Assembly (NCBI RefSeq): GCF_964355755.1
Contig: NC_092679.1
Coordinates: 8,400,201-8,464,200 of the forward strand
Length of the DNA: 64,000 bases
Direction: 5' to 3'
Origin: Antedon mediterranea
Taxonomy: Eukaryota; Animalia; Echinodermata
The notes below the pieces were generated by a model that did no database searches, had not been told where the DNA came from, and saw nothing but the letters and a program-made list of their open reading frames with translations. The translations under genes and the position numbers were made by a program. Positions 1 through 34,100 of the stretch are shown in pieces; the stretch's first letter is position 1, and every line of letters starts with the position of its first letter.

Positions 1-52
1 CCGAACTCGTCAAAGTGACGAGTTCAAGTCTAGTTCTTCATCTTCTTTGTTA

Positions 53-1646
53 TTAGTTATCCGCTTAGTAGCGGATAACTCCTTGTAATCGTCCTGTTTC
101 ATCATATTTTTTTTTTTTTTTTTCCTGTATTATACTTCTTTCCTTCTGTCATTTTTGTGCGTCGCGTTTCTCTAAAACGTGTAAACAGAACATATCGTAA
201 CTTTGTCAACATATCAACATTTACGTGAACTTGTGCACCTCCTATTTTTGAATGAAGTCAGAGTTGCGCAACGTGACTTACGCGCGATTTTATGAATTTC
301 AATGATTGATCATAGACTAAAAACGAAACATAATTTTGTTTTGACACTTTGTGAAAATTTAAGTCACATCAAGCGCAAACTTCCTATGGATTAAAAATAG
401 CATGTTTCACAAAAAGTTACGCGCGCACGCGCGTTTAAAATTTTAGAGTGCGAAAAATCAACTTCTAATCAACTTTCTATGCGTTTCATGTCATTTTAAG
501 CATGTCAAAAATTCCCACGCGCGCGAAATTTTTTACGCACGCGGTGCACACTTAGAGTTAAAAACATATTTTTTTCGCGTGATTCATGTTTTTTCAGCCT
601 TTTATAGTAATGTTACCAACTTTTAAACAATTTCGACTTAAAATTACGTCATACGAGCACGTCGAATTAAATAATTTGCACGCGTTTCTGGTGAAAAAGT
701 TCAAAAATTCGTCAAAATTATGCCTATTTTTAAACAGTCATAGATTCTAAACTACATGGAGAACTTTTTTTTAATTACATATTCTGGAAGTTGATGAGTT
801 GTAGATATCGAATCATGCATTAATATGGCTAACCGGACATTGTGACGTCATCGTATGGCCACGCGAATATAAAATATAGGATTTTTGTCTCTTTCGTCAT
901 AGCTCATCACATTTAATAGAGCGCATCTCCACTTATTCGTAGTCGATTTTCACCCCGATTTTACTATATTCTAGGTCAATCAACTATCGTTTGCATGAAT
1001 TAAAAATTTTTTAATTTTTTCAACGTCATCATGCCTAAAAATTTAAATTACGTTGGTCATTAATTTCATCTTTACAGTAAATTTTAATCTGTTATAGCTC
1101 GTAAGAATAAAATGTGATAATCACGATTAAAACGTTTTCAGGAAGCTATTGTATTGTAGATACAAAATCATGTGAAAATTGTGCCAATCGAATGTTGTAA
1201 CGTCATCATATGGCCAGTTAAATACAAAAAGTCGTATTTTCATCTTTTGCGTTATATTTCATTACATTTAAAAGAGCGCGCATCAATATTTCACGTATTC
1301 AAATTTCTTCTACACGTTAATATGTTGTTGCTGAGATAATTTAATTCTGAAATTTCTACTTTTGCATTTCATTTTGAAACCGTCAAGATGTTAAAAATTA
1401 CAATAAAATACGGGTCCCGTAATTTCACCTATTTTACACTATTTGTGATATGTATACAGATTGTACTGTGTATACTATGTATATGACACAAAATAACAGA
1501 ATTCAGAAATAACAACATATCATATTCTTCAGTTCAGGTCATAATGCCTTAATATTTTTCTGTGTGCAATATTCTAACGTATGACGTGCACGTGGCGTTT
1601 GTCGAGCGGATAACTAACTCGTCAAAGTGACGAGTTTCATGTCTAG
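53..1646 (+). mobile_element. Complete long-type HINE-like copy inserted into the leader of another copy
   Basis: Runs from head TTAGTTATCCGC-ttagta-GCGGATAACT to tail CTAG. Its flanks rejoin to catcttctttgtta|ttcttctttctttcccgg, which is seen uninterrupted at 40409-40440. Confidence 0.8.
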
Positions 1647-4600
1647 TTCTTCTTTCTTTCCCGGATTTTTGTGACCAGCATATCTCTATTGCTTGTGAAC
1701 ATAACTTTGTATAACTTGGTAAAAAGATTGACATTGAAGTGTAGATGTGCAGCCAACCTTTTGGACGATGTCAGATCCGCGTTGCGTAAGTTACGCGCGA
1801 TTTTATGAATTTCGCGTATTTAACATAGACTAAAAACCAAAAGTCATTTTGTAATAACACTTGGAGAAAATTTAAGTCATATCAAGGGCAAACTTTCTAT
1901 GGATTAAAAATGGAATGTTTCAAAGAAAGTTACGCGCGCACGCGCGTTTAAAATTTCAAAATGCGAAAAATCAACTTCTAATCAACTTTCTACGCGTTTC
2001 ATGTCATTTTGAGCATTTCAAAATTTCCCACGCGTGCGCAATTTTTTTACGCGCACGTGCGCACGTAGCGCAAAAACATCATTTTTTTGCTTGATTTTTG
2101 TTTTTCTTGTCTTTTTTAGAAAATTTACCAACTTTCAAACAATTTCGATATAAAATCACGTCATACGAGCACGTAGAATTAAACAATTTACGCGCATTTT
2201 TGATGAAAAAGTTCAAAAATTTGTCAAAATTATGCCTTTTTTTAAACAGTCATAGATTCTAAACTACGTGGTGAACTTTTTTATAATTACATATTCTGGT
2301 AGTAGATGAGTTGCAGATATCAAATCATGCATCAATATGGCTAACCGGACATTGTGACGGCCACTCGAATATAAAATATAGGATTTTTGTCTCTTTCCTC
2401 GTAGCTCGTCACATTTAATATAGCGCATCTCCACTTATTTGTATTCCATTTCTCCCCATTTTTTTATGTTGTCTAGGTCTATCAATTATCTTTCGCACGA
2501 TTCACCATTTTCAAAATTGTGATGACGTCATCATGTTCAAAAGCGTCAATAACTTTGGTCACTTATTTTCCCCTATTCTGCACTGTATGTAGTACGTATA
2601 CAGTATATAGTGTATACCGTATATACTCAGACGTGACGAAAAATAGAGAGCACACTGAAATTGTTTCAATGACTTAATCGTTTTTCTGCGCGCAATATTC
2701 TAACGTATAACGTGCACGTGGCCTTTGCGCTGCGGATAACCTAACTCGTCCGTAGTGACGAGTTCAAATCTAGTTTTCTGTATTATTAGTTATCCGCATT
2801 CAGCGGATAACTCCTTGTAACTGTCCTGTTACTTTTTGGTTATCCGCAACTTAGTTGCAGGATAACCCATGTGATTGTAAATATCTTTTTTTTCATCTTC
2901 TTTGTTATTAGTTATCCGCATTCAGCGGATAACTCCTTGTAACTGTCCTGTTACTTTTTTTTAGTTATCCGCATTCAGCGGATAACTCCTTGTAATCGTC
3001 CTGTTACTTTTTTTTCTTCTTCTTTCTTTCTCCCTCATTTTTGTGTCTCACGTATCTCAAAAACTTGTAAACATAACATTTCATAACTTTGTCAACATAT
3101 GTGCATATACGTGAAGTTGTGCACCTCCTATTTTTGAATGACGTCAGAGTTGCGCAACGTGACTTACGCGCGATTTTATGATTTTTTATGATTGACCATA
3201 GATTAAAAACCAAGCGTAATTTTGTTTTGACACTTTGTGAAAATTTAAGTCTTATCAAGTGCAAATATTCTATGGATTAAAAATGGCATTTTTTACAAGA
3301 AGTTACGCGCGCACGCGCATTTAAAATTTCAAAATGCGCAAAATTAATTTCTAATCAACTTTCTACGCTGATCATGACATTTTGAGCATGTCAAAAATTC
3401 CCACGCGCGCGAAAAAATTTACGCGTAAGGGGCGCACGGAGTATGAAAACCATGTTTTTTTTCTTGAATTTTGAGTGTCCAGCCTTTCGTAGTCATTTTA
3501 AACAAGATTGACATCATTTCAAGTTAAAATGACGTCATACGTACACGTTGATTTAGACCATTTGCATGCGTTTTAGTTGCAAAAGTGAAAAAATATTGTC
3601 AAAATTATGCCTATTTTGAATCTATTATAGCTCGTCAGGATCAAAGGTGACCCCAATTTGTTTTAACTTATTATGCAAGAAGATAAATTGTAGATATAAA
3701 TTCATGCAGAATTTTTACCTCTCGGAAGTTATGACGTCATCGTATGGCCACACGAATGTAAAATATAGGATTTTTGTCTCTTTCGTTATTGCTCATCACT
3801 TTCAATAGAGCGCATCTCGGTTATCCGTATTCCATTTCCTCCGATATTTAATATTATCTAGGTCAATCAATTATCTTTCCATGAGTAAAAAATATTTTAA
3901 TTTTTATGACGTCATTATGTCTAAAAATGTAAAGCATATTATCACGTATTTTCATCTTTACAGTAAGTTTCAATCTGTTATAGCTCGTCAGAATAATAAG
4001 TGATAATCATGATTAAAACGTTTTCTGGAAGCTATTGGACTGTATATACGAATTCATATAAACAGTTTGCCAATCAGGTGTTGTGCCGTCATCATATGGC
4101 CAGTTGAATAAAAAAAGACGTATTTTCATATTTTGCGTAATAGTTCATCACATTTAAAAGGGTGCGCATCTATATTTTATGTATTCAATTTTCTTCTACA
4201 CCTTAATATGTTGTTCCTGAGATTATTTCCTTCTGAAATTGTTATCTAAGTGTTTCGTTTTGATACCGTCGTCATGTTAAAAATTGGAATAAATGGCGGG
4301 TCCCGTAATTTCACCTATTCTACACTGTATGTAATATGTATACAGATTATACTGTTTGCATGTACCGTATATACTATATGACACAAAATTGACAGAATTC
4401 AGCACTAACAGCATATCATATTCTTCAGTTCTTGTCATAATTCCATAATCTTTATCTGTGTGCAATATTCCAACTTATGACGTGCACGTGGCGTTTGTCG
4501 TGGTGCGGATAACTAACTCGTCAATGTGACGAGTTTCATGTCTAGTTTTCTTCTTTCTTTCTCCTCTATTTTTGTGTCTCGCGTATCTCAAAAACGTGTA

Positions 4601-7600
4601 AACATAACATGTTATAACTTTGTCAGCATGAGGGCATTCAGGTGAAGTTGTGCACCTCCTATTTTTGAATGACGTCAGAGTTGCGCAACATGACTTACGC
4701 GCGTTTTTACGAATTTCGCATTTTTAACATAGATTGAAAACCATATAGCAATTTAAATTGAAACTTAACGAAAGTTTAATTGATATCTTGCGCTAACAGA
4801 ATGTGAAAAAAAAATGGCATGTTTCACAGGAAGTTACGCGCGCACGCGCGTTTTAAATTTCAAAATGCGAAAAATCAATTTCTAATCAACTTTCTACGCG
4901 TTTCATGTCATTTTGAGCATGTAAAAAATTCCCACGTACGCGCATTTTTTTACGCGTGCGGTGCGCACGTAGCGTTGAAAACCATTTTTTTCACGTGATT
5001 TATGTTTTTCCAGCCTTTTCTAGTAATTTTACCAACTTTTGAACAATTTCGACTTAAAATTACGTCATACGGGCACGTCGAATTGGATAATTTACGTGCA
5101 TTTTTGATGAAAAAGTTCAAAAAGTCGTCAAAATTTGTCAAAATTATGCCCTTTTTTAAACAGTTATAGTTCCTAAACTAAACGGTGAAAGTTATTTTTA
5201 TTGCATATTCTGAAAGTTGATGAGTTGTAGATTTTGAATCATGCATTAATATGGCTAACCGGACATTGTGACGTCACCGTATGCCCACGCAAATATAAAA
5301 TATAGGATTTTTGTATCTTTCATCATAGCGCATGACATTTAATAGAGCGCATCTCCAATTATCTGTTTTCCATTTTTGCCCCGATTTTTATATTATCTAG
5401 GTCAATCAACTATCTTTCGTATGAGTTAAAAATATTTTAATATTTATGACGTCATCATGTCTAAAAATGTAAATAACGTGGGTCACTTATTTTTGTCCTT
5501 ACAGTAAATTTCAATCTGTTATAGCTCGTCAGAATAAAACGTGATAATCATGATTAAAACGTTTTCTGGAAGCTATTGGATTGTAGATACGAATTTATGT
5601 AAACATTTTCCCAATCAGATCTTGTGACGTCATCATATGGCCAGTTGAATAAAAAAAGTCGTATTTTCATATTTTTCGTCATAGTTCATTATATTTAAAA
5701 GAGCGCGCATCAATATTAAACGTATTCAAATTTCTTCTACACGTTAATATGTTGTTGCTGAGATAATTTCCTTCCGAAATTGCTATCTTAGTGTTTCATC
5801 TTGATACCGTCGCCATGTTACAAATTTGAATAAATGGCGGGTCCCGTAATTTCACCTCTTCTACACTGTATGTAACATGTATACAGATTATACTGTTTTC
5901 ATGTATATACTATATGACACAAAATTGACAGAATTCAGCACTAACAACATATCATATTCTTCAGATCAGGTCATAATGCCATAATTTTCTTCTGTGTGCA
6001 ATATTCTAACGTATGACGTGCACGTGGCGTTTGTCGTGCGGATAACTAACTCGTCAAAGTGACGAGTTACATGTCTAGTACTTCTTTCTTTCTGTCATTT
6101 TTGGGCGTCGCGTTTCTCTAAAACGTGTAAACAGAACATATCGTAACTTTGTCAACATATCGACATTTACGTGAACTTGTGCACCTCCTATTTTTGAATG
6201 ACGTCAGAGTTGCGCAACGTGACTTGCGTGCGATTTTATGAATTTCAATGATTGATCATAGACTAAAAACCAAACATAATTTTGTTTTGAAACTTTGTGA
6301 AAATTTAAGTCATATCAAGCGCAAACTTTCTATGGATTAAAAATAGCATGCTTCACAAAAAGTTACGCGCGAACGCGCGTTTAAAGTTTTAACGTGCGAA
6401 ATATCAACTTCTAATCAACTTTCTATGCGTTTCATGTCATTTTGAGCATGTCAAAAATTCCCACGCGCGCGAACATTTTTACGCACGCGGTGCACACTTA
6501 GCGTTAAAAACATATTTTTTTCGCGTGATTTATGTTTTTTCAGCCTTTTCTAGTAATGTTACCAAATTTTAAACAATTTCGACTTAAAATTACGTCATAC
6601 GAGCACGTCGAATTAGATAATTTTCACGCGTATTTGGTGAAAAAGTTCAAAAATGCGTCAAAATTATGCCTATTTTTAAACAGTCATAGATTCTAAACTA
6701 CATGGAGAACTTTTTTTTAATTACATATTCTGGAAGTTGATGAGTTGTAGATATCGGATCATGCATTAATATGGCTAACCGGACATTGTGACGTCATCGT
6801 ATGGCCACGCGAATATAAAATATAGGATTTTTGTCTATTTCGTCATAGCTCATCACATTTAATAGAGCGCATCTCCACTTATTCGTTGTCCATTTTCATT
6901 CCGATTTTAATATATTCTAGATCTATCAACTATCTTTTGCATGAATTAAAAATTTTTTAATTTTTTTAACGTCATCATGCCTAAAAATTTAAATTACGTT
7001 GGTCATTAATTTCATCTTTACAGTAAATTTTAATCTGTTATGCCTCGTAAGAATAAAATGTGATAATCACAATTAAAACGTTTTCAGGAAGCTATTGTAT
7101 TGTAGATACAAAATCATGTGTAAATTGTGCCAATCGAATGTTGTGACGTCATCATATGGCCAGTTAAATAAAAAAAGTCGTATTTTCATCTTTTGCATTA
7201 TATTTCATTACATTTACAAGAGCGTGCATCAATATTTCACGTATTCAAATTTCTTCTACACGTTAATACGTTGTTGCTGAGATAATTTCATTCAGAAATT
7301 TCTACTTTTACATTTCATTTTGAAACCGTCAAGATGTTAAAAATTACAATAAAATACGGGTCCCGTAATTTCACCTATTTTACACTGTTTGTGATGATTG
7401 TACTGTGTATACTATATGACACAAAATAACAGAATTCAGAAATAACAACATATCATATTCTTCAGTTCAGGTCATAATGCCTTAATATTTTTCTGTGTGC
7501 AATATTCTAACGTATGACGTGCACGTGGCGTTTGTCGAGCGGATAACTAACTCGTCAAAGTGACGAGTTTCATGTCTAGTTCTTCTTTCTTTCCCGGATT

Positions 7601-10600
7601 TTTGTGACCAGCATATCTCTATTGCTTGTGAACATAACTTTGTATAACTTGGTAAAAAGATTGACATTGAAGTGTAGATGTGCAGCCAACCTTTTGGACG
7701 ATGTCAGATCCGCGTTGCGTAAGTTACGCGCGATTTTATGAATTTCGCGTATTTAACATAGACTAAAAACCAAAAGTCATTTTGTAATAACACTTGGAGA
7801 AAATTTAAGTCATATCAAGGGCAAACTTTCTATGGATTAAAAATGGAATGTTTCAAAGAAAGTTACGCGCGCACGCGCGTTTAAAATTTCAAAATGCGAA
7901 AAATCAACTTCTAATCAACTTTCTACGCGTTTCATGTCATTTTGAGCATTTCAAAATTTCCCACGCGTGCGCAATTTTTTTACGCGCACGTGCGCACGTA
8001 GCGCAAAAACATCATTTTTTTGCTTGATTTTTGTTTTTCTTGTCTTTTTTAGAAAATTTACCAACTTTCAAACAATTTCGATATAAAATCACGTCATACG
8101 AGCACGTAGAATTAAACAATTTACGCGCATTTTTGATGAAAAAGTTCAAAAATTTGTCAAAATTATGCCTTTTTTTAAACAGTCATAGATTCTAAACTAC
8201 GTGGTGAACTTTTTTATAATTACATATTCTGGTAGTAGATGAGTTGCAGATATCAAATCATGCATCAATATGGCTAACCGGACATTGTGACGGCCACTCG
8301 AATATAAAATATAGGATTTTTGTCTCTTTCCTCGTAGCTCGTCACATTTAATATAGCGCATCTCCACTTATTTGTATTCCATTTCTCCCCATTTTTTTAT
8401 GTTGTCTAGGTCTATCAATTATCTTTCGCACGATTCACCATTTTCAAAATTGTGATGACGTCATCATGTTCAAAAGCGTCAATAACTTTGGTCACTTATT
8501 TTCCCCTATTCTGCACTGTATGTAGTACGTATACAGTATATAGTGTATACCGTATATACTCAGACGTGACGAAAAATAGAGAGCACACTGAAATTGTTTC
8601 AATGACTTAATCGTTTTTCTGCGCGCAATATTCTAACGTATAACGTGCACGTGGCCTTTGCGCTGCGGATAACCTAACTCGTCCGTAGTGACGAGTTCAA
8701 ATCTAGTTTTCTGTATTATTAGTTATCCGCATTCAGCGGATAACTCCTTGTAACTGTCCTGTTACTTTTTGGTTATCCGCAACTTAGTTGCAGGATAACC
8801 CATGTGATTGTAAATATCTTTTTTTTCATCTTCTTTGTTATTAGTTATCCGCATTCAGCGGATAACTCCTTGTAACTGTCCTGTTACTTTTTTTTAGTTA
8901 TCCGCATTCAGCGGATAACTCCTTGTAATCGTCCTGTTACTTTTTTTTCTTCTTCTTTCTTTCTCCCTCATTTTTGTGTCTCACGTATCTCAAAAACTTG
9001 TAAACATAACATTTCATAACTTTGTCAACATATGTGCATATACGTGAAGTTGTGCACCTCCTATTTTTGAATGACGTCAGAGTTGCGCAACGTGACTTAC
9101 GCGCGATTTTATGATTTTTTATGATTGACCATAGATTAAAAACCAAGCGTAATTTTGTTTTGACACTTTGTGAAAATTTAAGTCTTATCAAGTGCAAATA
9201 TTCTATGGATTAAAAATGGCATTTTTTACAAGAAGTTACGCGCGCACGCGCATTTAAAATTTCAAAATGCGCAAAATTAATTTCTAATCAACTTTCTACG
9301 CTGATCATGACATTTTGAGCATGTCAAAAATTCCCACGCGCGCGAAAAAATTTACGCGTAAGGGGCGCACGGAGTATGAAAACCATGTTTTTTTTCTTGA
9401 ATTTTGAGTGTCCAGCCTTTCGTAGTCATTTTAAACAAGATTGACATCATTTCAAGTTAAAATGACGTCATACGTACACGTTGATTTAGACCATTTGCAT
9501 GCGTTTTAGTTGCAAAAGTGAAAAAATATTGTCAAAATTATGCCTATTTTGAATCTATTATAGCTCGTCAGGATCAAAGGTGACCCCAATTTGTTTTAAC
9601 TTATTATGCAAGAAGATAAATTGTAGATATAAATTCATGCAGAATTTTTACCTCTCGGAAGTTATGACGTCATCGTATGGCCACACGAATGTAAAATATA
9701 GGATTTTTGTCTCTTTCGTTATTGCTCATCACTTTCAATAGAGCGCATCTCGGTTATCCGTATTCCATTTCCTCCGATATTTAATATTATCTAGGTCAAT
9801 CAATTATCTTTCCATGAGTAAAAAATATTTTAATTTTTATGACGTCATTATGTCTAAAAATGTAAAGCATATTATCACGTATTTTCATCTTTACAGTAAG
9901 TTTCAATCTGTTATAGCTCGTCAGAATAATAAGTGATAATCATGATTAAAACGTTTTCTGGAAGCTATTGGACTGTATATACGAATTCATATAAACAGTT
10001 TGCCAATCAGGTGTTGTGCCGTCATCATATGGCCAGTTGAATAAAAAAAGACGTATTTTCATATTTTGCGTAATAGTTCATCACATTTAAAAGGGTGCGC
10101 ATCTATATTTTATGTATTCAATTTTCTTCTACACCTTAATATGTTGTTCCTGAGATTATTTCCTTCTGAAATTGTTATCTAAGTGTTTCGTTTTGATACC
10201 GTCGTCATGTTAAAAATTGGAATAAATGGCGGGTCCCGTAATTTCACCTATTCTACACTGTATGTAATATGTATACAGATTATACTGTTTGCATGTACCG
10301 TATATACTATATGACACAAAATTGACAGAATTCAGCACTAACAGCATATCATATTCTTCAGTTCTTGTCATAATTCCATAATCTTTATCTGTGTGCAATA
10401 TTCCAACTTATGACGTGCACGTGGCGTTTGTCGTGGTGCGGATAACTAACTCGTCAATGTGACGAGTTTCATGTCTAGTTTTCTTCTTTCTTTCTCCTCT
10501 ATTTTTGTGTCTCGCGTATCTCAAAAACGTGTAAACATAACATGTTATAACTTTGTCAGCATGAGGGCATTCAGGTGAAGTTGTGCACCTCCTATTTTTG

Positions 10601-13538
10601 AATGACGTCAGAGTTGCGCAACATGACTTACGCGCGTTTTTACGAATTTCGCATTTTTAACATAGATTGAAAACCATATAGCAATTTAAATTGAAACTTA
10701 ACGAAAGTTTAATTGATATCTTGCGCTAACAGAATGTGAAAAAAAAATGGCATGTTTCACAGGAAGTTACGCGCGCACGCGCGTTTTAAATTTCAAAATG
10801 CGAAAAATCAATTTCTAATCAACTTTCTACGCGTTTCATGTCATTTTGAGCATGTAAAAAATTCCCACGTACGCGCATTTTTTTACGCGTGCGGTGCGCA
10901 CGTAGCGTTGAAAACCATTTTTTTCACGTGATTTATGTTTTTCCAGCCTTTTCTAGTAATTTTACCAACTTTTGAACAATTTCGACTTAAAATTACGTCA
11001 TACGGGCACGTCGAATTGGATAATTTACGTGCATTTTTGATGAAAAAGTTCAAAAAGTCGTCAAAATTTGTCAAAATTATGCCCTTTTTTAAACAGTTAT
11101 AGTTCCTAAACTAAACGGTGAAAGTTATTTTTATTGCATATTCTGAAAGTTGATGAGTTGTAGATTTTGAATCATGCATTAATATGGCTAACCGGACATT
11201 GTGACGTCACCGTATGCCCACGCAAATATAAAATATAGGATTTTTGTATCTTTCATCATAGCGCATGACATTTAATAGAGCGCATCTCCAATTATCTGTT
11301 TTCCATTTTTGCCCCGATTTTTATATTATCTAGGTCAATCAACTATCTTTCGTATGAGTTAAAAATATTTTAATATTTATGACGTCATCATGTCTAAAAA
11401 TGTAAATAACGTGGGTCACTTATTTTTGTCCTTACAGTAAATTTCAATCTGTTATAGCTCGTCAGAATAAAACGTGATAATCATGATTAAAACGTTTTCT
11501 GGAAGCTATTGGATTGTAGATACGAATTTATGTAAACATTTTCCCAATCAGATCTTGTGACGTCATCATATGGCCAGTTGAATAAAAAAAGTCGTATTTT
11601 CATATTTTTCGTCATAGTTCATTATATTTAAAAGAGCGCGCATCAATATTAAACGTATTCAAATTTCTTCTACACGTTAATATGTTGTTGCTGAGATAAT
11701 TTCCTTCCGAAATTGCTATCTTAGTGTTTCATCTTGATACCGTCGCCATGTTACAAATTTGAATAAATGGCGGGTCCCGTAATTTCACCTCTTCTACACT
11801 GTATGTAACATGTATACAGATTATACTGTTTTCATGTATATACTATATGACACAAAATTGACAGAATTCAGCACTAACAACATATCATATTCTTCAGATC
11901 AGGTCATAATGCCATAATTTTCTTCTGTGTGCAATATTCTAACGTATGACGTGCACGTGGCGTTTGTCGTGCGGATAACTAACTCGTCAAAGTGACGAGT
12001 TACATGTCTAGTACTTCTTTCTTTCTGTCATTTTTGGGCGTCGCGTTTCTCTAAAACGTGTAAACAGAACATATCGTAACTTTGTCAACATATCGACATT
12101 TACGTGAACTTGTGCACCTCCTATTTTTGAATGACGTCAGAGTTGCGCAACGTGACTTACGTGCGATTTTATGAATTTCAATGATTGATCATAGACTAAA
12201 AACCAAACATAATTTTGTTTTGAAACTTTGTGAAAATTTAAGTCATATCAAGCGCAAACTTTCTATGGATTAAAAATAGCATGCTTCACAAAAAGTTACG
12301 CGCGAACGCGCGTTTAAAGTTTTAACGTGCGAAATATCAACTTCTAATCAACTTTCTATGCGTTTCATGTCATTTTGAGCATGTCAAAAATTCCCACGCG
12401 CGCGAACATTTTTACGCACGCGGTGCACACTTAGCGTTAAAAACATATTTTTTTCGCGTGATTTATGTTTTTTCAGCCTTTTCTAGTAATGTTACCAAAT
12501 TTTAAACAATTTCGACTTAAAATTACGTCATACGAGCACGTCGAATTAGATAATTTTCACGCGTATTTGGTGAAAAAGTTCAAAAATGCGTCAAAATTAT
12601 GCCTATTTTTAAACAGTCATAGATTCTAAACTACATGGAGAACTTTTTTTTAATTACATATTCTGGAAGTTGATGAGTTGTAGATATCGGATCATGCATT
12701 AATATGGCTAACCGGACATTGTGACGTCATCGTATGGCCACGCGAATATAAAATATAGGATTTTTGTCTATTTCGTCATAGCTCATCACATTTAATAGAG
12801 CGCATCTCCACTTATTCGTTGTCCATTTTCATTCCGATTTTAATATATTCTAGATCTATCAACTATCTTTTGCATGAATTAAAAATTTTTTAATTTTTTT
12901 AACGTCATCATGCCTAAAAATTTAAATTACGTTGGTCATTAATTTCATCTTTACAGTAAATTTTAATCTGTTATGCCTCGTAAGAATAAAATGTGATAAT
13001 CACAATTAAAACGTTTTCAGGAAGCTATTGTATTGTAGATACAAAATCATGTGTAAATTGTGCCAATCGAATGTTGTGACGTCATCATATGGCCAGTTAA
13101 ATAAAAAAAGTCGTATTTTCATCTTTTGCATTATATTTCATTACATTTACAAGAGCGTGCATCAATATTTCACGTATTCAAATTTCTTCTACACGTTAAT
13201 ACGTTGTTGCTGAGATAATTTCATTCAGAAATTTCTACTTTTACATTTCATTTTGAAACCGTCAAGATGTTAAAAATTACAATAAAATACGGGTCCCGTA
13301 ATTTCACCTATTTTACACTGTTTGTGATGATTGTACTGTGTATACTATATGACACAAAATAACAGAATTCAGAAATAACAACATATCATATTCTTCAGTT
13401 CAGGTCATAATACCTTAATATTTTTCTGTGTGCAATATTCTAACGTATGACGTGCACGTGGCGTTTGTCGAGCGGATAACTAACTCGTCAAAGTGACGAG
13501 TTTCATGTCTAGTTCTTCTTTCTTTCCCGGATTTTTGT
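1481..13538 (+). repeat. Higher-order tandem duplication, period 5933 bp (4 heads + 4 bodies per unit)
   Basis: Identical ORF-track peptides and CTAG tails recur at exactly +5933. I spotted only two substitutions (6226 G/12159 A; 7479 G/13412 A). Confidence 0.95.
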
Positions 13539-16500
13539 GTGTCGCATATCCCCTATTGCTTGTGAACGTAACTTTGTATAACTTTGTCAAAAGATTGACC
13601 TGTAGCTGTAGATGTGCAAGAAACTTCGTTATATGACGTTAGAGCCGCGCAGCGTAAGTTACGCGCGATTTTATGAATTTCTATGATTGATCATAGATTA
13701 TAAACCAAAAGTCATTTTTTATTGACACTTGGTGAAAATTTAAGTCATATCAAGGGCGAAATTTCTATGGATTAAAAATGGCATGTTTCACAAGAAGTTA
13801 CGCACGCACGCGCATTTAAAATTTCAAAATGCGCAAAATTAATTTCTAATCAACTTTCTACGCTGATCATGACATTTTGAGCATGTCAAAAATTCCCACA
13901 CGCGCGGAAAAAATTACGCGTAAGGTGCGCACGGAGCATGAAAATCATGTTTTTCTCTTGAATTATAATTTTACAGTCTTTCCTAGTCATTTTAAAAAAG
14001 ATTGACATCATTTCAAATTAAAATGACGTCATACGAACACGTTGATTTAGACCATTTGCGCGCATTTTAGTTGCAAAAGTGACAAAATATTGTCAAAATT
14101 ATGCCTATTTTTAATCTATTATAGCTCTTCAGGATCAAAGGTGACCCCCAATTTTTTTTACTTATTATGTAAGAAGATAAATTGTAGATATGAATTCATG
14201 CAGAATTTTTACCTCTTGGATGTTATGACGTCATCGTATGGCCACACGAATGTAAAATATAGGATTTTTGTCTCTTTCGTTATTGCTCATCACATTCAAC
14301 AGAGCGCATCTCGCTTATACGTATTCAATTTCCTCCGAGATTTTATTATTGTCTCTGTCAATAAACTATCTTTCGCATGAGTTAAAAATATTTAAATTTT
14401 TATGACGTCATCATGTCTAAAAATGTAAATAACGTGGATCACTTCTTTTCATCTTTACAGTAAACTTCAATCTGTTATAACTCGTCAGAATAAAAAGTGA
14501 CGCGCATGATTAAAACTTATTATAGAATTTGTTGAATTGTAGATATGAATTCATATACAAATGTTGTCTATCTCATGTCATGATGTTATCATATGGCCAG
14601 TTGAATTCAAAAAGTCATATTTTCATTTCTTGCGTAAAAGTTCATTGCGTTTAAACTAAAGCGCATGTCACTTTTACGTGCCCAAAATTCTTCAAATTTG
14701 TATTAATGTAATTATTTAGATAATTAGCTTCTAAAATAGTTATGTTTATATCCAATTTGATGACGTCATCGTGTTAATAATTTGATTTAAAAGATGGGTC
14801 TCGTAATTTCGTCTATGCTACACTGTATATAACATATACACTGTATATAACATATACAGTGTATTCTGTAAATACTGTAATATGTTGTATGCTACAAAAT
14901 AGGACAATTCAGCACTGTAAACGTATTTAAATCATGTAATAGGAAGGCATAATAATTGTCGGCGTTCATATATTATAAACGTATGTGCATGTTGCGTTTG
15001 CGCGGATAACCCGAACTCGTCAAAGTGACGAGTTCAAATCTAGTTTTTTTTTTCTTTCTTTCTCCTCTATTTTTGTGTCTCGCGTATCTCAAAAACGTGT
15101 AAACATAACATGTTATAAATTTGTCAGCATGAGGGCATTCACGTGAAGTTGTGCACCTCCTATTTTTGAATGACGTCAGAGTTGCGCAACATGACTTACG
15201 CGCGTTTTTACGAATTTCGCCTATTTAACATAGATTGAAAACCATATAGCAATTTAAATTGAAACTTAACAAAAGTTTAATTGATATCTTGCGCTAACTG
15301 AATGTGAACAAAAAATGGCATGTTTCACACGAAGTTACGCGCGCATGCGCGTTTTAAATTTCAAAATGCGAAAAATTTATTTCTAATCAACTTTCTACGC
15401 GTTTCATGTCATTTTGAGCATGTAAAAAATTCCCACGTGCGCGCATTTTTTTACGCGCGTGGTGCGCCCGTAGCGTTGAAAACAATTTTTTCCGCGTGAT
15501 TTAAGTTTTTCCAGCCTTTTCTAGTAATTTTACCAACTTTTGAACAATTTCGACTTAAAATTACGTCATACGGGCACGTCGAATTGGATAATTTACGTGC
15601 ATTTTTTATGAAAAAGTTTAAAAAATCGTCAAAATTTGTCAAAATTATGCCCTTTTTTAAACAGTCGTAGTTCCTAAACTAAACGGTGAAAGTTATTTTT
15701 ATTGCATATTCTGAAAGTTGATGAGTTGTAGATTTTGGATCATGCATTAATATGGCTAACCGGACATAGTGACGTCATCGTATGGCCACGCGAATATAAA
15801 ATATAGGATTTTTGTATCTTTCATCATAGTGCATGACATTTAATAGAGCGCATCTCCAATTATCTGTTTTCCATTTTTACCCCGATTTTTATATTATCTA
15901 GGTCAATCAACTATCTTTCGGATGAGTTAAAAATAATTTAATTTTTATGACGTCATCATGTCTAAAAATGTAAATAACGTGGGTCACTTATTTTCGTCTT
16001 TACAGTAAATTTCAATCTGTTATAGCTCGTCAGAATAAAACGTGATAATCATGATTAAAACGTTTTCTGGAAGCTATTGGATTGTAGATACAAATTCATG
16101 TAAACATTTTGCCAATCGGATGTTGTGACGTCATCATATGGCCAGTTGAATAAAAAAAGTCATATTTTCATATTTTGCGTAATTGTTCATCACATTTAAA
16201 AGGGCGCGCATCTATATTTTACGTATTCAAATTTCTTCTACACGTTAATATGTGGTTGCTGAGATAATTTCCTTCTGAAATTGCTATCTTAGTGTTTCAT
16301 TTTGATACCGTCGCTATGTTAAAAATAGGAATAAACGGGGGGTCCCGTATTTTCACCTATTCTACACTGTATGTAACATGTATACAGATTATACCGTTTG
16401 CACTGTATATACTATATGACACAAAATTGACAGAATTCAGCACTAACATCATATGATATTCTTCAGTTCAGGTCATAATGCCATAATATTTTTCCGTGTG

Positions 16501-18112
16501 CAAAATTCCAATGTATGACGTGCGCGTGGCGTTTGTCGTGGTGCGGATAACTAACTCGTCAAAGTGATGAGTTTCATGTCTAGTTCTTCTTTCCTTCCTT
16601 CCTTTTTGTGAGTCGCGTTTCTCTAAAATGTGTAAACATAACATTTCATAACTTTGACAACATATGGGCATTTACGTGAAGTTGTGCACCTCCTATTTTT
16701 GAATGACGTCATAGTTGCGCAACGTGACTTACGCGCAATTTTATGAATTTCAATGATTGATCATAGATTAAAAACCAAAAGTCATTTAGTATTGACACTT
16801 TGACAAAATTTAAGTCATATCAGGGGCAAACTTTCTACGGATTAAAAATGGCATGTTTCACAAGAAGTTACGCGCGCACGCGCATTTAAAATTTCAAAAT
16901 GCGCAAAATTAATTTCTAATCAACTTTTTACGCGTTTCATGTCATTTTGAGCATGTCAAAAATTCCCACTGGCGCGCAATTTTTTACGCACGCGGTGCGC
17001 ACGTAGCGATAAAAACATATTTTTTTCTCTTGAATTATATTTTTCAAGCCTTTCCTAGTAATTTTGAAAACAATTTAGACCTTTTCCAGTTTAAATAACG
17101 CCATACGAACACGTTGAATTAGACAATTTGTGCGCGTTTTTTATGAAAAAGCTTAAAAAATCATCAAAATAATGTCTTTTTTTAAACAGTCATAGTTTCT
17201 AAAGTAAACCGTGAACCGTTTATTTTTATTACAAAATCTAGAAGTTGATGAGTTGCAGATATCGGATCATGCATCGATAAGGCTAAAAAAACATTGTGAC
17301 GTAATCGTATGGCCACACGAATGTAAAATATAGGATTTTTGTCTGTTTCGTTATTGCTCATCACATTCAATGGAGCGCATCACGCTTATCTGTATTCCTT
17401 TTTCTCCTATATTTATATATTGTCTAGGTCAATCAACTTTCTTTAGCATGAGATAAAAATATTTAAATTTTTATAACGTCATCATTCCTAAAAATTTTAA
17501 TTACTTGGGTCATTAATTTCATCTTTACAGTAAATTTTAATCTGTAATAGCTCGTAAGAATAAAATGTGATAATCACGATTAAAACGTTTTCTGGAAGCT
17601 ATAGGATTGTAGATACAATTCATGTAAACATTTTGCCAATCGGATGTTGTGACGTCATCATATTGCCAGTTGAATAAAAAAAGTCGTATTTTCATATTTT
17701 GCGTAATAGTTCATCACATTTAAATGTGCGCGCACCAACATTTTACGTATTCAAATTTCTTCTACACGTTAATATGTTGTTGCTAAGATAATTTTCTTCA
17801 GAAATTGCTATCGTTGTGTTGTTTTTTTTATGATGTCATCATGTTAAATATTTGAATTAAAGGCAGGTCCTATAATTCAGTTAATATGTCATATAATATA
17901 CAGTAGTACAATGTACACCAGCATAGTCTCTGATGTGAGCAAATTGTTGTTTGCCGCCCTCTGTATCATGTAGAATTAATGTCTCCTTTTATACACAGTG
18001 TACTGTATAATTATAATACAAGGCGAAAATACAGGACCACCTCTTATTATAGTGCACGTGGCATCTGTCGTGCGGATAACTAACTCGTCAAAGTGACGAG
18101 TTTCATGTCTAG

Positions 18113-23660: not shown

Positions 23661-23865
23661 TTGCATTAGATCTGATTGACGATATCCGTGATTATGGCAC
23701 TTCTACTGACAATGTAGAAAGACGAGTATTCTTTCTCCTTCAAAATGTAGCCAAAGGTGGACATCTCGAAGAGGCCAAACAGCTGACACATAAATTTATT
23801 GACAACAACATTGTCAATTCAAGTAACAACGTTCTTAGACCAGTTGTAACTGCACTAATGAACAA
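23661..23865 (+). CDS. LRPPRC: LRPPRC exon (VALDLIDDIRDY...FFLLQNVAKGGHLEEAKQLTHKFIDNNIVNSSNNVLRPVVTALMNK); absent from the ORF track
   Basis: tctctttcag acceptor, GTAAGT donor and an open frame. Phases 1 and 2 fit both neighbouring exons. Collinear with the LRPPRC segment ending PLVTVHLEK. Confidence 0.85.
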
Positions 23866-27381: not shown

Positions 27382-29774
27382 TTACTGTAAATAATCATTG
27401 TATATATTTCATAATTAGTTATCCGCATTGAGCAGATAACTCCTTGTAACTGTCCTGTTTCATCATCTTTTTTTTTTTTAGTTATCCGCTTAGTAGCGGA
27501 TAACTCCTTGTGATTGTAGTGGATCAATATTGTAAAAATCATTTTCATCTTTATTCTTCTTTCTTTCCCGGATTTTTGTGAGCAGCATATCCCCTATTGC
27601 TTGTGAATATATCTTTTGTATAACTTTGTCATTATATGGACATTTACCTGAAGTTGTGCACCTCCATATTTTGAATGACGTAGTTGCGATTTTATGAATT
27701 TCAATGATTGATCATAGAATAAAAAATAAGTCATTTTGTATTGACACTTGGTGAAAATTTAAGTCATATCAAGGGCAAACTTTCTATGGATTAAAAATGG
27801 CATGTTTTACAAGAAGTTACGCGCGCACACGCATTTAAAGTTTCAAAATGCGCAAAATTAATTTCTAATCAACTTTCTGCGCTGATCATGACATTTTGAG
27901 CATGTAAAAAATTACCGCGCGTGCAAAAAATTTTACGCGTAAGGTGCGCACGGAGCATGAAAAACAGGTTTTTTTTTTCTTGAATTGTGATTTTCCAGCC
28001 TTTCCTAGTCATTTAAAAAAGGATTGACATCATTGCAAATTAAAATGACATCATACGAACACGTTGATTTATACCAATTGCGCCCGTTTTAGTTGAAAAA
28101 GTTATAATAGTAGGGCGGCCAGTGTGAGCTTTTTCATCATGGGGAGCATTTTCTGTTAATAGCAGGCAACCATGTGGAATATATCCCTTATGGGATGACA
28201 AAAAAGATAGGGGTGGATGCCGCTCTCAAATTTCAGGTCAAAGGTCATTTTCAAGGTTATAAGGTCAAATATGGTAAAATAGAGGTTTAAGCTGTTTTCA
28301 ACAACATATAAGCTAATTAAAAGAAATGTAACCATTATTGGATCATTATTGACATATTGCTGCAGATGGTGAAGTTCATCAATTTTTCAACTTACAAGTT
28401 TAAAGGTCATTTTCAAGGTCATTAGGTCAAATAGAGCACAGACCTGTTAATTATCGGTAATAATTGAAATAAATATAATTTTCATGATACCCTTGGGCTG
28501 ATGGTTATAGTGTAGTGTCAAAAAGACCAGAATTGTACTGGGAAGATTTTAAACTTTTTGAGTCACTCCTGGAAGGTGTTAACGGTCACAGAGGGTTTGT
28601 GGGTTGGGAGTAATGGGCGGCATGGGCACATGCCAATATTCAAAATTTTTCTGGGATGGAAGGATGTGACGCTCTGAGGTGGGTATTTCTTCAAGCACTG
28701 ATATATAATGCCTACTGGCCATCTGGGTAACGGCAAACGATTGAATCACAACCCATATGCATGCTTTCTGTAACAACTTCATCTGGCTCTTTAGTTTACA
28801 TACACATGTAACAAGTTCCAAACTGACAACTGGGTTAGGGGCTTCCAAACGACCCGATTCATTTAGGCCACATACTGATCTCTGCCTGATAGTTGGCTCG
28901 TATGTTTAGGTTCTATGATGTCTGTATTCACCATAGGTGAGTTTTTTTAATTTTAAGTGTTTCCCGAAGTAGAAATACAGGTACTTAAATATTTATTGAG
29001 TGAAGTGAAATACTTAATATTTAAGGGAAATATATATCACTAGTGTTAATGGTATATGGTCACTGAGTCTAGATGGAGGTAGCACCAAAGAGTAGTCTGT
29101 TATTATACAGTTATCTGCTCAAGAGTACCACACTGTATATTTGGCAATATTAAACTTTAGTGTACACTGTACGTGGAAAGTCTTAATCAATTCCATTTAC
29201 AAGGAGTGGATGCGTTACAAATGATTTCCAGTATGACCTCTTCCCATAACCAGGAAATAATGACGTGCTGCAACCTGTAATGGCATGGAAGCTGGTTAGA
29301 TTATTCTTAATAGGTTTTCAACCACTTTATTGTTCACTATACCAGACATCGTCCATACTTTTGAAGGCTACTGTTACAAAGTGCATATAATTAATTAACA
29401 TCAACTTTCATGTATAATTGCAAGCACTTTGTTATTGACATAAAGAATGTCTAAAAACTGTGTGATATTTGTTCTCCTCCAAACCGATGAGTGTGGCCCA
29501 AAACACATGTGTACAGATTAGTACATTGGGACTATCCTTTCAATCGTGTCACTGCTTTTATCCACCCCTTTCCAATGTAATGATCAAATACAACAAAATG
29601 ACGAAATATCTAGGTAACTTGCATAAATACTTGCATAGTCACCAAATGTTTACAGCCATGTTTACTGCATCCTATAGTGCATGACCATCATGTTTTTACT
29701 GTAAGTTTTCTTCTGGAACATCTGTTGGTATTTCAACGTCATCCATCAAGATATGTGAAGTCATATTTGGTTAA

Positions 29775-30348
29775 AGATATTAAAATTGGGCTATGATCAT
29801 ACTCCAAGGCGATTTCACTGACAGGCTTAAGATACTAAATTTACCAGATATGGTTCAAAGAATGAAATTTCATAGTATAATTTTTGTAGTTAAGTGTTTG
29901 CATAATTTAATTGATTTTGATATATTTGAATACCTTACAATTAATTCTCGGTATCCAGAGTCCCTCACCTTTAAACACATGTATGCTAGAACTAATGCAT
30001 TTAAATACTCCCTGTTTGTTAATTTCCCTCGAATATGGGAATGTATCCCGCATGAAGTTCGTAACAAAGTCCTGTTTAACTTTGGGGGGTTTAGAAGGGA
30101 TCTGAAAAAATGTATTACTGATATCGAATTCATCTAGACTATCACTGTGTTTTTATGTCTATTGCGTTTTTCGTACTATTAGTTGGGAAAGCCACTCGAC
30201 AGTGCAGTTCTTTTGAACTGATCCACTTTTGGTTACCCGCAGGTGCTGATAGTACTTTTGTTCTGTTTTGTTGAATGATGCCGTACCTTGTTTATGATTT
30301 TTGTATGTTACCTGGAAATTGAATAAAATAAAATAAAAAATAAAAAAC
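29775..30348 (+). mobile_element. 5'-truncated CR1/L2-type LINE 3' end inside the Academ
   Basis: ORF 29793-30137 (RLKILNLP...ARTNAFKYSLF...RIW) resembles an ORF2 C-terminus and is followed by an (AAATA)n tail. Confidence 0.75.
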
Positions 30349-30859
30349 AATGGTTGATCAGCAGATTTTCTGTCAGTTTTTATATACTTTCTCGAAACAG
30401 TTGCCTTATAGAAATCCGCAAAGGTTTAGAGCGATGCTTTCTCAGTGGCTCATGAAGTTCTAAGTTCTACTGTTTTTTTTCTTTCAATAAGTTGTTACTT
30501 TAAATATAAGATCTTCCTTATCATCTGTCAGTTCGAAAGAATATTGTGTATTATGTGTGATTCGTGATCAGTCTGACCATGTCATGCAGAACCTATCAAT
30601 GAATTACAGCGTTTCTTGTTATACCAATGATTCTATTTTGAATTGATCAATCATCCACTCAGTGTTTAGAATATTGGTTCTGATAGTTTAGATAGGTAAA
30701 TTTGTTTACCCTTTTAACCTCATTTCTACAACGAATTCAATCGGTTTTTAAATGTGTTGGTGGTTTCAGAAATGACGACTTTGGTTGAAAAACTATTAAA
30801 ATATATAATTACTAATTGTGAAAAAGTGGATCTCTTATCAGTCCTTTGTGAAATTTAGG

Positions 30860-31130
30860 TTTAAAAAGTCTAAGCTGATGTCCTCGTGTATTTCTGCTTA
30901 GATTGCATCTTATTTGAAGGAAGTCTTCCTTGGCTACACCCTCGAAATCTTTTGAAAATTTTCAATCAAGTCACCATGAATTCATACAGGGTTGTTAGGC
31001 CAAGAAACTTTAAACGATCTCATATGAATAAGAATGGATAGCTGGAATTTGATTTGTCGCATGACGTTGTCCTCTTCAAGTGCGTTTACTTTTTGGGAGA
31101 AATGGATTTCATACCTGGACACAGTACGTA
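30860..31130 (-). mobile_element. CR1-type LINE ORF2 C-terminal fragment
   Basis: Minus-strand RLKFLGLTTL...GDLIE motif. Confidence 0.6.
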
Positions 31131-34100
31131 ACGTAATGTTTGTAAATAACGTTAAAACCGTCTTTATCCATGTGTATAAAGGACTTCTTAATTACTTAAG
31201 GAGTTTTATATTTGTTATCACCGTCAGCCATGATAGCATAGATGCGAAGGCCTCAAGAAGAAGTCCCCAATTACCACTCCTTCCAACCTTGGTAAAGTCC
31301 AATAGTTAGAGTTTTTGAAAACAAAGACTCGATACCCAGGTTTCTCTTTCGAGATTTCTTGAAACAACAAACTTCAATAAAAACTTGTATCATTGAAATA
31401 ATGAAAACAATGTTTAAATAATTACATTATAGGGGGTCTCTGACCCAAACAAAAACATCTCGACATTAGGTCATATAGGGGGTCTCTGTTTTCGAAATTT
31501 TTCGAAAAACAAATTTCTAAATATTATTACATTATTATAGGTAATATTAATAATTTTTCTAAAAACAAATTTCTAAATATTACTGTATTACATTATTATA
31601 GGTAATATTAATATTATACTGTAGTAAAAGACCAATCATTTGGCACATATGGCGTTTCATACATATAACACTTGACCTATTTTTTTCCGACAAAAATCAA
31701 AACGATGACTGGTGGACAACATGAAAAAGACAAATTTACAACAGACTGGGAAAAGCCTATTAAAAAACTGTGTGTACTTTACAGAAAATATGTGAAAACA
31801 ACATTTTGAGAAAATGACACTTTTATATTTAATTTCCTATGTTTTTATGTGTAAAATTAAATGTTTATCTCATAATTACTATAATATGAAGCATCAGTTG
31901 ATCTTCATATATACCTTTTTGGATAGATCTTATGATGTAGATGATTTTCCGTGAATACAAAAAAATCCTATATTTTGACCTTGTTTGACCTCTTGACCAC
32001 ATAAACTGACCTTAAAACCCAAAACTGAAGATGGCATCAACCCCTATCGTTTTTGTCACCCCACAAAGGATACATTCAACATGGTTGCCTGCTATTAACA
32101 AAAAATGCCCCCCAAACTTTTTATAGAGGACTTTTGTGTATTTGGCCTCTCTACTATAAAATATTGTCAAAATAATGCCTATTTTGAATCTATTATAGCT
32201 CTTCAGGATCAATGGTGACCCCCAATTGTTTTAACTTATTATGTAAGAAGATAAATTGTAGATATGAATTCATACAAAATGTTTACCTCTCGGATGTTAT
32301 GACGTCATTGTATGGCCACACGAATGTAAAATATAGGATTTTTGTCTTTTTCGTTATTGCTCATCACATACAACAGAGCGCATCTTGCTTATACGTATTC
32401 CATTTCCCCCGAGATTTTAATATTGTCTACGTCAATCAACTATCTTTCAAATGAGTTAAAAATATTTTAATTTTTATGACGTCATGTCTAAAAATGTAAA
32501 TAACGTGTCACTTATTTTCATCTTTACAGAAAATTTCAATCTGTTATAGCTCGTCAGAATAAAAAGTGATAATCATGATTAAACGTTTTCTGGAAGCTAT
32601 TGGATTGTAGATACGAATTCATGTGAATATTTTGCCAATCAGATGTTGTGATGTCATCATATGGCCAGTTGAATTCAAAAAGTCATATTTTCATCTCTTG
32701 CGTAAAAGTTCATTGCGTTTAAACGAGAGCGCATCTCACTTTTACGTGCCCAAAATTTTTCAAATTTGTATTGTGATTATTTAGATAATTATCTTCTAAA
32801 ATTGTTATCTTTATAGGTCAATTTGATGACGTCATCGCGTTAAAAATTGGATTTAAAAGATGGGTCTCGTAATTAAGTCTATGCTACACTGTATATAACA
32901 TACACAGTGTATTCTGTAGATACTGTAATATGATGTATGCTACAAAATAGGTACAATTCAGCACTGTAAACACATTTATTTCATGTCATAGGATGGCATA
33001 ATAATTGTCGAGGTTCATATAGTTTAAAGTATGTGCATGTTGCGTTTGCGCGGATAACCCGAACTCGTCAAAGTGACGAGTTCAAATCTAGTTGGTTATC
33101 CGCAACTTATAAAGTTGCATATAACCCTTGTGATTGTAAATATCTTTTTTTTTCTTCTTCTTTGTTATTAGTTATCCGCTTAGTAGCGGATAACTCCTTG
33201 TAATCGTCCTGTTTCATCATATTTTTTTTTTTTTTTTTTTCTTTATTATTAGTTATCCGCACTTGGCGGATAACTCCTTGTTTTTGTATGGGATCTTTTT
33301 CCTTTTCTGTATTATTAGTTATCCGCATTGAGCAGATAATTAGTTATCCGCATTGAGCAGATAACTCCTTGTAATCGTCCTGGATCTTTTTCTGCTTCTT
33401 TCTTTCTCCCCCATTTTTGTGCAGAACGTATCTCAAAAACTTGTAAACATAACATTTCATAACTTTATCAACATATGGGCATTTACGTGAAGTTGTGCAC
33501 CTCCTATTTTTGAATGACGTCAGAGTTGTGCAACATGACTTACGCGCGATTTTATGATTTTTTATGATTGATCATAGACTAAAAACCAAGCATAATTTTG
33601 TTTTGACACTTTGTGAAAATTTAAGAGCCATTGTCTGTAAGAATCAAAGAAATATCAAAAAAAGTGGCAGACTCAAAAAAATGGATTTCTTTCAAATTTT
33701 GCACATGGCTATATATGTGTTGAGAGAAATCAAATATGAAGTATTTTTTATTTCAAACGTATATTTCCATGGCAACGGCCAAATTTGTGTTTTTGACAAA
33801 TTTTGTCCTTTTTTAAGGTTTTTTAAAATGGATATTGGCACTACTTTGATGAGCGATATTTTTGTGTTGTTCATTTAATTATAAAAAATAATTAGTGTAT
33901 GCATAATAACAATGCATTGTGTACCTGTTTCAAATTTTTTTTTTTTTTTTTATTTCATACTTTGGGAGATACCATTTATTTAAAAAGGGGTGTTTTTCAC
34001 TTTTTTTAAATTGTTCAATGCAACTAAACTTTACTTCACCATAACGCCCAAAGTGGTGTATTTTTTTAGCTGATTTATTACAAATAGGTAGTTCTAATGT

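What the first reader, a model, noticed from the sequence alone, without database searches (positions are those of the whole stretch)
1..18112. Self-targeting rolling-circle element builds Russian-doll arrays (stacked heads, then headless bodies)
Seen: the solo copy at 45894-47124 shows the element is head + T-rich leader + body + CTAG tail. In the arrays most bodies start right after a CTAG with no head, while heads pile up in clusters. Removing 53-1646 restores gtta|ttcttctttctttcccgg, found intact at 40419-40440. The junction ctgtatta|tacttc, intact at 125-138, is split between 2778-2785 and 6079 onward. Known: Helitron2/Helentron elements have asymmetric subterminal inverted repeats, insert next to T without a TSD and can form tandem arrays. 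Inference: this family repeatedly targets its own leader 45-90 nt behind the 5' hairpin. A satellite-like array therefore grows by nested insertion rather than only by rolling-circle concatemers, and each copy acts as a landing pad for later ones. I know of no description of this architecture but cannot exclude one.
Basis: partly seen in the sequence, partly recalled or inferred. Interest (0 to 1): 0.88.

Follow-up and report, generated by a model that had tools for sequence, protein, structure and literature searches.

The report
Rolling-circle transposon nested inside itself
A non-coding transposon with Helitron2-type ends sits in arrays where copies likely inserted into the first 50-81 bases of one another, a behaviour already proposed for related fungal elements, and a third of the main array is simply a near-exact 5.9 kb duplication.

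Summary
The element and both quoted junctions are real. It is a 1.1-1.6 kb non-coding repeat with Helitron2/HLE2-type ends, very abundant in the genome. All 13 visible cuts made by one copy in another fall in the T-rich 5' leader; none falls in a body, although three unrelated elements did insert in bodies. Neighbouring bodies are only 72-87% alike, so these are not rolling-circle concatemers.

Three corrections. (1) 1480-7606 equals 7413-13539 (5,933 bp period, 2 mismatches), so 33% of 1-18112 is a tandem duplication or assembly repeat. (3) In the second array, 5 of 6 cut heads have no partner.

Stacked 5' ends of 31-85 nt by self-insertion are published for Fusarium Helitron2 elements, and two left ends for a Xenopus one. 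New here are the retained five-deep nest and the sharp position bias. Genome-wide rates and the autonomous partner could not be tested. New variant of a known kind.

The parts
1..33 (+). 3' end (hairpin + CTAG) of a copy that begins left of the window
34..52 (+). leader fragment f1 of an outer copy whose head is left of the window; continues at 1647
   Evidence: 42-nt exact match across the join to the copy at 40351
53..1646 (+). complete inner copy (head, intact leader, long body, tail)
1647..2773 (+). headless short-type body completing f1
   Evidence: 98.6% to the 40351 copy over the first 150 body columns
2774..2785 (+). leader fragment f2; partner most likely 16584, alternatively 6079
2786..2960 (+). 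three cut heads H1 (2786-2835), H2 (2836-2907), H3 (2908-2960)
2961..4545 (+). complete innermost copy (head H4 + intact leader + body + tail)
4546..6078 (+). headless body completing H3
6079..7579 (+). headless body, 96.5% like 53-1646; orphan in the last-in-first-out parse
7413..13539 (+). near-exact second copy of 1480-7606 (period 5,933; 2 mismatches); contains heads 8719-8894 and bodies 7580, 8894, 10479, 12012
13513..15043 (+). headless body completing H2
   Evidence: 48-nt exact match across the join; head/tail repeat variant agrees
15044..16583 (+). headless body completing H1; 95% like 4546-6078
16584..18112 (+). outermost visible headless body, likely completing f2; followed by non-family flank
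27415..43272 (+). second array: 11 heads, 5 tails, three direct CTAG|TT tail-to-head joins (33091, 40290, 41687), one matched nest (33249 head with 38786 body), five unclosed heads; three foreign inserts inside bodies
45894..47124 (+). solo short-type copy between T/A-rich flanks

Best explanation
This is a non-coding repeat family with Helitron2/HLE2-type ends whose copies lie in one orientation inside one another's T-rich 5' leaders, likely because new copies inserted there one after another, with the arrays likely reshaped later by one 5.9 kb tandem duplication and by loss of outer bodies or heads. SHOWN: termini, junctions, cut positions, pairing, divergence of neighbours, the duplication. 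INFERRED: (1) An unseen RepHel partner excises copies as circles and joins them to single-stranded T-rich DNA, as shown for Helraiser. (2) T-tracts next to a terminal hairpin (the leader, or the T flank after CTAG) are favoured targets, probably because they melt easily where transposase is already bound; each inserted copy brings a new leader, so depth grows. (3) Mobilisation from an outer head to an inner tail, or deletion, leaves multi-head composites, as in the second array. (4) The 5,933 bp repeat arose by unequal crossing-over in a 194-bp shared tail-plus-leader stretch. (5) Body 6079 lost its head by an ~80 bp deletion between repeated head junctions.
For: 13 leader cuts, 3 tail-adjacent joins, 3 non-family junctions and 0 cuts in bodies in the de-duplicated window. 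Three unrelated inserts do sit in bodies. Exact regeneration across joins: 42 nt (f1|1647), 48 nt (H2|13513), 18 nt (H1|15044), 14 nt (H3|4546). Near-identical heads H1 and H3 pair with 95%-identical bodies, and both joins give a 13-nt T spacer, against 10 and 16 if crossed. Head variant TTAG/TTGG agrees with the tail repeat variant in 4 of 4 de-duplicated nested pairs and 5 of 7 intact copies. Neighbouring bodies are 72-87% alike. Contigs of the source organism show tail-to-headless-body joins at other single-copy loci and tail-to-head joins at about 9-10 times single-copy depth. Published: self-insertion model and 31-85 nt extra heads in FoHeli1; circles, ssDNA cleavage and end bypass for Helraiser.
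Against: Only 6 of 11 cut leaders have a partner, and two of the six (f2|16584, 33249|38786) have no intact reference in the window. Class order alone is matched by 4 of 30 permutations, and I assigned the leader classes by eye. Two junction types recur in both arrays (53 and 33168; 2786 and 33315), so some may be inherited composites rather than new events. One contig shows a head in a body T-run (table 5c). The array runs off the left edge, so outer heads are unseen. No transposase was found among 22 ORFs scanned.
Confidence: 0.72

Rival explanations
1. Nesting is real but passive: the element only prefers long T/pyrimidine tracts, and its leader happens to be the best such tract nearby. No recognition of its own ends is involved.
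For: Leaders carry the longest pyrimidine tracts (16-34 nt against 9-13 nt in bodies; the leader end of one copy was mis-set there and corrected). HINEs prefer T-rich targets (PMC4067079).
Against: Two of three non-family sites (27414/43273 and the solo) are ordinary AT-rich DNA, not long pyrimidine tracts. Bodies have T-runs of 8-10 with no insertion. Even requiring T>=6, leaders hold only 22% of positions. Several cuts are at A|T after 'tta', outside the long T-run.
Confidence: 0.35
2. A few old self-insertions created composites that were then moved as units and shuffled by recombination. There is no recurring preference.
For: The same head-to-head junctions occur in both arrays (53 and 33168 are identical over 26 nt). 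Head 27478 aligns as a collapsed two-head stack. FoHeli multi-head copies transpose as units.
Against: At least seven different cut points or partner combinations among subfamilies 72-89% alike. The outer bodies are retained in reverse order in the first array, which unit mobilisation would drop.
Confidence: 0.2
3. The arrays are rolling-circle concatemers or runs of 5'-truncated one-ended insertions.
For: Three exact CTAG|TT joins resemble circle junctions. 5'-truncation is described for the Helitron2 elements CRe-1 to 3.
Against: Neighbours are different subfamilies (72-87%). All 7 distinct headless bodies start within the leader, at points that complete upstream cut heads, and none is truncated inside the body.
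Confidence: 0.06
4. One reading: 2774-2785 pairs with 6079, the block 2786-6078 arrived as a four-head, two-body composite, and bodies 13513, 15044 and 16584 belong to heads left of the window.
For: Exact 18-nt match across the f2|6079 join and top alignment score. It needs no lost head. Head-excess composites exist in the second array.
Against: It needs unseen heads in the same class order as the visible f2, H1, H2. It leaves the H1/15044 spacer complement and the 48-nt H2/13513 match to coincidence.
Confidence: 0.3
5. The 5,933 bp repeat is an assembly artefact rather than a real duplication (concerns that part only).
For: 2 mismatches in 6,127 bp.
Against: The breakpoints fall in a 194-bp homology of the kind that drives unequal crossing-over; this does not exclude an artefact.
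Confidence: 0.2

Closest known systems
FoHeli1 Helitron2 elements of Fusarium oxysporum (PMC5148889; PMC13342296)
   Same: Asymmetric terminal inverted repeats with hairpins at both ends; stacks of 5' termini 31-85 nt long, up to five per copy; explained by self-insertion followed by mobilisation from outer head to inner tail. A three-copy Metarhizium array was read as possible repeated insertion into a 5' end.
   Different: There the extra heads sit mostly on one body, and the ends are TCAG...ATTTT. Here the outer bodies survive in reverse order five deep, the family is non-coding and animal, it ends TT...CTAG, and several subfamilies interleave.
HINE/DINE-1 non-autonomous Helentrons (PMC4067079; oyster HINEs PMC7492417)
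   Same: Non-coding, subterminal inverted repeats, 5' inverted repeat, 3' hairpin, T-rich targets, no target modification.
   Different: No microsatellite or young central tandem array here (only a 67% 198-bp internal repeat in the long form). Nesting in the leader was not in the passages I retrieved.
HelenXT233 of Xenopus tropicalis (PMC11417382)
   Same: Animal HLE2 with two non-identical left ends in direct repeat, each marking a subfamily.
   Different: A single autonomous two-head element; no nested array is described in those passages.
proto-Helentron-Pi (PMC4067079)
   Same: 5'-TT and CTAG-3' ends, A|T insertion, one valid reading of the ends here.
   Different: An autonomous ~14 kb oomycete element with a different placement of repeats and stem-loop.
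Helibat tandem joins (PMC4778049)
   Same: [quoted passage not shown]
   Different: Helitron1 type; no leader nesting.
Zepp retrotransposon clusters (PMC3446292) and self-inserted MITE multimers (PMC5172404)
   Same: Arrays built by elements inserting into their own kind.
   Different: Different mechanisms (LINE; cut-and-paste), and no narrow 5'-leader window in the passages seen.

Membership tests
Helitron2 / HLE2 | 5' asymmetric inverted repeat 0-2 bp from the 5' end | tested here: met
   The 10-bp repeat starts at base 3 of every head (definition from PMC3627910)
Helitron2 / HLE2 | 5' hairpin that uses the inverted repeat | tested here: met
   15 of 16 distinct heads fold this way (-5.2 to -11.5 kcal/mol, no shuffle control); the exception 41756 is deleted
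Helitron2 / HLE2 | 3' inverted repeat just upstream of a 3' hairpin, about 20-30 bp from the end | tested here: met
   The repeat starts 41-42 nt and ends about 31 nt before the end; hairpin present in 14 of 15 distinct tails (41687 is truncated)
Helitron2 / HLE2 | Insertion between T and T, no target duplication | tested here: inconclusive
   The base after the tail is T in 15 of 15 and TT in 14 of 15. Excision restores leaders with nothing duplicated if the ends are read TT...CTAG, giving A|T or T|T; reading the TT as host is equivalent. No proven empty site for a non-family insertion.
Helitron2 / HLE2 | RepHel transposase in the HLE2 clade | not testable with these tools
   No genome held; no RepHel domain in 22 window ORFs scanned
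Helentron / HINE | Autonomous partner with endonuclease domain sharing the subterminal repeats | not testable with these tools
   Partner not in the window; pattern scans of metagenome and viral contigs gave 0 hits
Helentron / HINE | Non-coding, multi-copy, defined ends | tested here: met
   Two body frames scanned gave no Pfam hit. Summed contig depth rises roughly 2,000-20,000-fold over the unique flank, with sharp edges (not a copy number).
Helitron1 (canonical) | 5'-TC start without terminal inverted repeats | tested here: not met
   Heads start TT and carry the inverted repeat
Rolling-circle concatemer array | Adjacent units near-identical | tested here: not met
   72-87% between neighbours in 11 of 11 adjacent pairs

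The most novel reading that the evidence does not exclude
HLE2 transposases home on their own kind: a complex bound to a resident 5' repeat/hairpin melts the next 30-85 nt and receives the incoming circle there. The same window in Fusarium and in this animal would make it a conserved rule, giving same-strand, last-in-first-out arrays that record insertion order and seed multi-kilobase tandem repeats without rolling-circle amplification.
Probability: 0.3. Interest if true: 0.72.

Novelty: new variant of a known kind. Interest (0 to 1): 0.47.

Why it matters
Multiple 5' ends on Helitron2 elements have been explained by self-insertion, but in the passages I read the full nested intermediate was mostly inferred. 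This locus appears to keep it, five deep, with the cut sites confined to the same 30-85 nt window as in fungi. That makes target choice by rolling-circle transposases testable from genome sequence alone. It gives a relative chronology of subfamilies. It also warns that Helitron tandem arrays need not be concatemers, and that annotation tools pairing the nearest head and tail will mis-call such loci.

Tried and rejected
No whole genome is held, so the genome-wide parse, matched T-tract control and search for the autonomous partner were not done. The tail pattern found 0 loci in metagenome contigs and 0 in viral contigs. A homolog search with one exon found nothing within its length limits; I did not pursue the taxon. 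Earlier findings of the scan: nothing by sequence, place or words. The alignment-score pairing test did not single out the nested parse (rank 9 of 120), because poly-T joins score poorly. The two contig lay-ups skipped the T-run part of the leader and list only the best-supported rows, so they give no frequencies and cannot decide whether the 5.9 kb duplication is real. Rejected: concatemers (neighbour divergence); pure slippage as the source of stacks (adjacent heads are different subfamilies; only the 25-bp repeat at 33314-33364 is an exact local duplicate, and 2900-3015 at 93% is ambiguous). PMC13286980, PMC10288648 and PMC12001565 passages held nothing on leader nesting.
Full report
WHAT IS THERE. 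The window is animal-like DNA: exons at 43589-43819 and 48085-48255 match human LRPPRC (PDB 8ANY chain A5, E 2e-17 and 8e-10), and LINE-like and Gypsy-like frames lie further right. One repeat family fills about 26.5 kb of it. A copy has four parts. The head starts TT, with a 10-12 bp inverted repeat folded into a hairpin. A T/C-rich leader runs to about base 75-100. The body is about 1.1 or 1.5 kb. The tail has the complementary repeat, a second hairpin and CTAG. There are 21 heads and 19 tails, all on the + strand. A blast of three bodies against the window gave 142 hits, none a reverse-strand copy (the one minus hit is a local palindrome) and none outside the mapped arrays by more than 4 bases. 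Contigs of runs holding this window show the family at thousands of times the depth of the unique flank (summed depth, not a copy number). Related sequence is in the runs of two other coded organisms.

OBSERVATION CHECK. The solo copy and both quoted junctions are at the stated coordinates. The second head stack and four bodies are therefore copies, 33% of the interval. The breakpoints fall in a 194-bp stretch of tail plus leader shared by two junctions (1 mismatch), as expected for unequal crossing-over (inference). An assembly repeat is not excluded.

PARSE OF THE FIRST ARRAY. After removing one unit the order is: tail, fragment f1, complete copy 53, body 1647, fragment f2, heads H1 H2 H3, complete copy 2961, then bodies 4546, 6079, 13513, 15044, 16584. 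A stack parse with leader classes that I assigned by eye pairs f1-1647, H3-4546, H2-13513, H1-15044 and f2-16584. It leaves no head open and one body, 6079, orphan. Exact matches across the joins to intact leaders in the window are 42, 14, 48 and 18 nt for the first four; f2-16584 has no intact reference in the window. It gives the same join as 33249-38786 in the second array, and contigs show similar intact leaders (tables 5c and 7).

Two independent checks agree. H1 and H3 are the same head cut at 3 and 6 T; their partners are 95% alike, and each join gives a 13-nt spacer, whereas crossing them gives 10 and 16. The head variant matches the tail repeat variant in 4 of 4 nested pairs with a visible head (5 of 7 in intact copies).

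That join, however, encloses four heads and two tails and needs three unseen heads left of the window in the same class order as f2, H1, H2. Both are nested-insertion histories.

SECOND ARRAY. 27415-43272 has 11 heads (one a 25-bp slippage copy) and 5 tails. One cut head is closed by its body; five are never closed. Three times a tail is joined directly to a head of a different subfamily. This is the pattern expected if composites are mobilised from an outer head to an inner tail, or lose outer bodies. Overall 6 of 11 cut leaders in the de-duplicated window have a partner.

IS THE POSITION BIASED? De-duplicated, 13 junctions cut a leader (50-81 nt from the 5' end in the 9 measurable heads), 3 abut a tail, 3 border non-family DNA and none cuts a body. 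Bodies are not closed to insertion: three unrelated inserts lie in them. Leaders hold 6-22% of T positions in six intact copies, so 13 of 13 has p of at most 3e-9. Allowing for shared junctions and the one head seen in a body T-run in contigs, 7 of 8 has p of at most 2e-4. The window was chosen for its arrays, so the share of nested against solo copies means nothing; the position within the element is less affected by that choice. Elsewhere in the genome, contigs show tails joined to headless bodies at single-copy depth (2 distinct joins listed) and tail-T-head joins at about 9, 2 and 2 times single-copy depth. One contig of organism B has a direct tail-to-head join. These tables are cut to the best rows and skip the leader T-run, so they show presence only.

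MECHANISM. Neighbouring bodies are 72-87% alike in 11 of 11 adjacent pairs, and all 7 distinct headless bodies start inside the leader, so concatemers and random 5' truncation do not explain the arrays. For Helraiser it is shown that the transposase cuts only single-stranded DNA, makes circles and can bypass an end (PMC4778049 passages). By inference, an unseen HLE2 transposase delivers circles to T-rich DNA that melts beside a terminal hairpin, which also fixes orientation. Whether the resident end is recognised or the tract alone suffices is open. Leaders have the longest pyrimidine tracts, yet two of three non-family sites are plain AT-rich DNA.

COMPARISON WITH WHAT IS KNOWN. The ends meet the Helitron2 definition (PMC3627910 passages; PMC11417382 passages); the transposase criterion is untestable here. 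PMC5148889 (passages and sections 10 and 16) describes FoHeli copies with the first 31, 65, 73 or 85 nt repeated, proposes self-insertion then outer-head-to-inner-tail mobilisation, and mentions a three-copy array possibly made by repeated insertion into a 5' end. PMC13342296 (passages) reports up to five 5' termini. PMC11417382 reports two left ends in a Xenopus HLE2, and PMC4778049 section 12 reports abutting insertions. Nested Zepp clusters and self-inserted MITEs are precedents in other classes (passages). PMC4067079, PMC7492417, PMC12001565, PMC13085455, PMC13286980 and PMC10288648 were seen as passages only.

Eight searches returned no description of a multi-level nest with the outer bodies retained in reverse order. 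The library lacks most subscription papers and Repbase. The plant centromeric Helitron array paper and the Drosophila double-insertion paper I saw only as citations, and the Fusarium supplements (Table S6, Fig. S11), which may bear on novelty, were not read.

VERDICT. Real, partly as described. Leader-nested self-insertion is the best explanation (0.72), with a tandem duplication and composites on top. The idea and the stacked heads are in print; the preserved nest and the measured bias are the addition. New variant of a known kind, interest 0.47.

Noticed in passing
window 43589-43819 and 48085-48255 (+): Exons of an LRPPRC-like gene; the solo copy lies between them. Open frames at 23582-23866 and near 18750-18840 look like further exons but were not confirmed.
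   Followed up: partly
window about 28108-32157, 33628-37527, 42003-42717: Three foreign inserts inside family bodies, each bounded by terminal inverted repeats; the second has TTAA on both sides. Used only as a control that bodies accept insertions.
   Followed up: partly
window 18113-18402 / 19192-19481 and 18826-19034 / 19480-19688: The right flank of the first array is locally duplicated (99-100%). The second copy is preceded by a T-run, which may show the pre-insertion site and predicts the array's unseen left flank.
   Followed up: partly
window 27478-27576: This head aligns as the first half of the 40291-type leader fused to the second half of the 40351-type leader, as if a two-head stack collapsed. 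Its head variant also disagrees with its tail variant.
   Followed up: partly
window about 43912-44600: A second small element with the same GTCT-microsatellite block at about 43912 and 44534 and body motifs reminiscent of the main family; possibly another HINE/pearl-like family (label recalled, not tested) with a doubled end.
   Followed up: no
window 33314-33364, 43210-43244, 41657-41687: Terminal damage: a 25-bp head duplication, a 17-bp duplication of the tail repeat, and a tail ending in CTAG inside its hairpin.
   Followed up: no
window 54600-59347 (+) and about 59650-62560 (-): A LINE-like element (endonuclease and reverse transcriptase frames) and a Gypsy-like element (zinc knuckle, reverse transcriptase).
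   Followed up: no
window 25659-26926 / 51133-52408: A 1.3 kb repeat present twice at 95%, unrelated to the main family.
   Followed up: no
run X4, contig record 9: In another coded organism a family tail is joined directly to a head of the 2836/40351 type, like the join at 33091.
   Followed up: no
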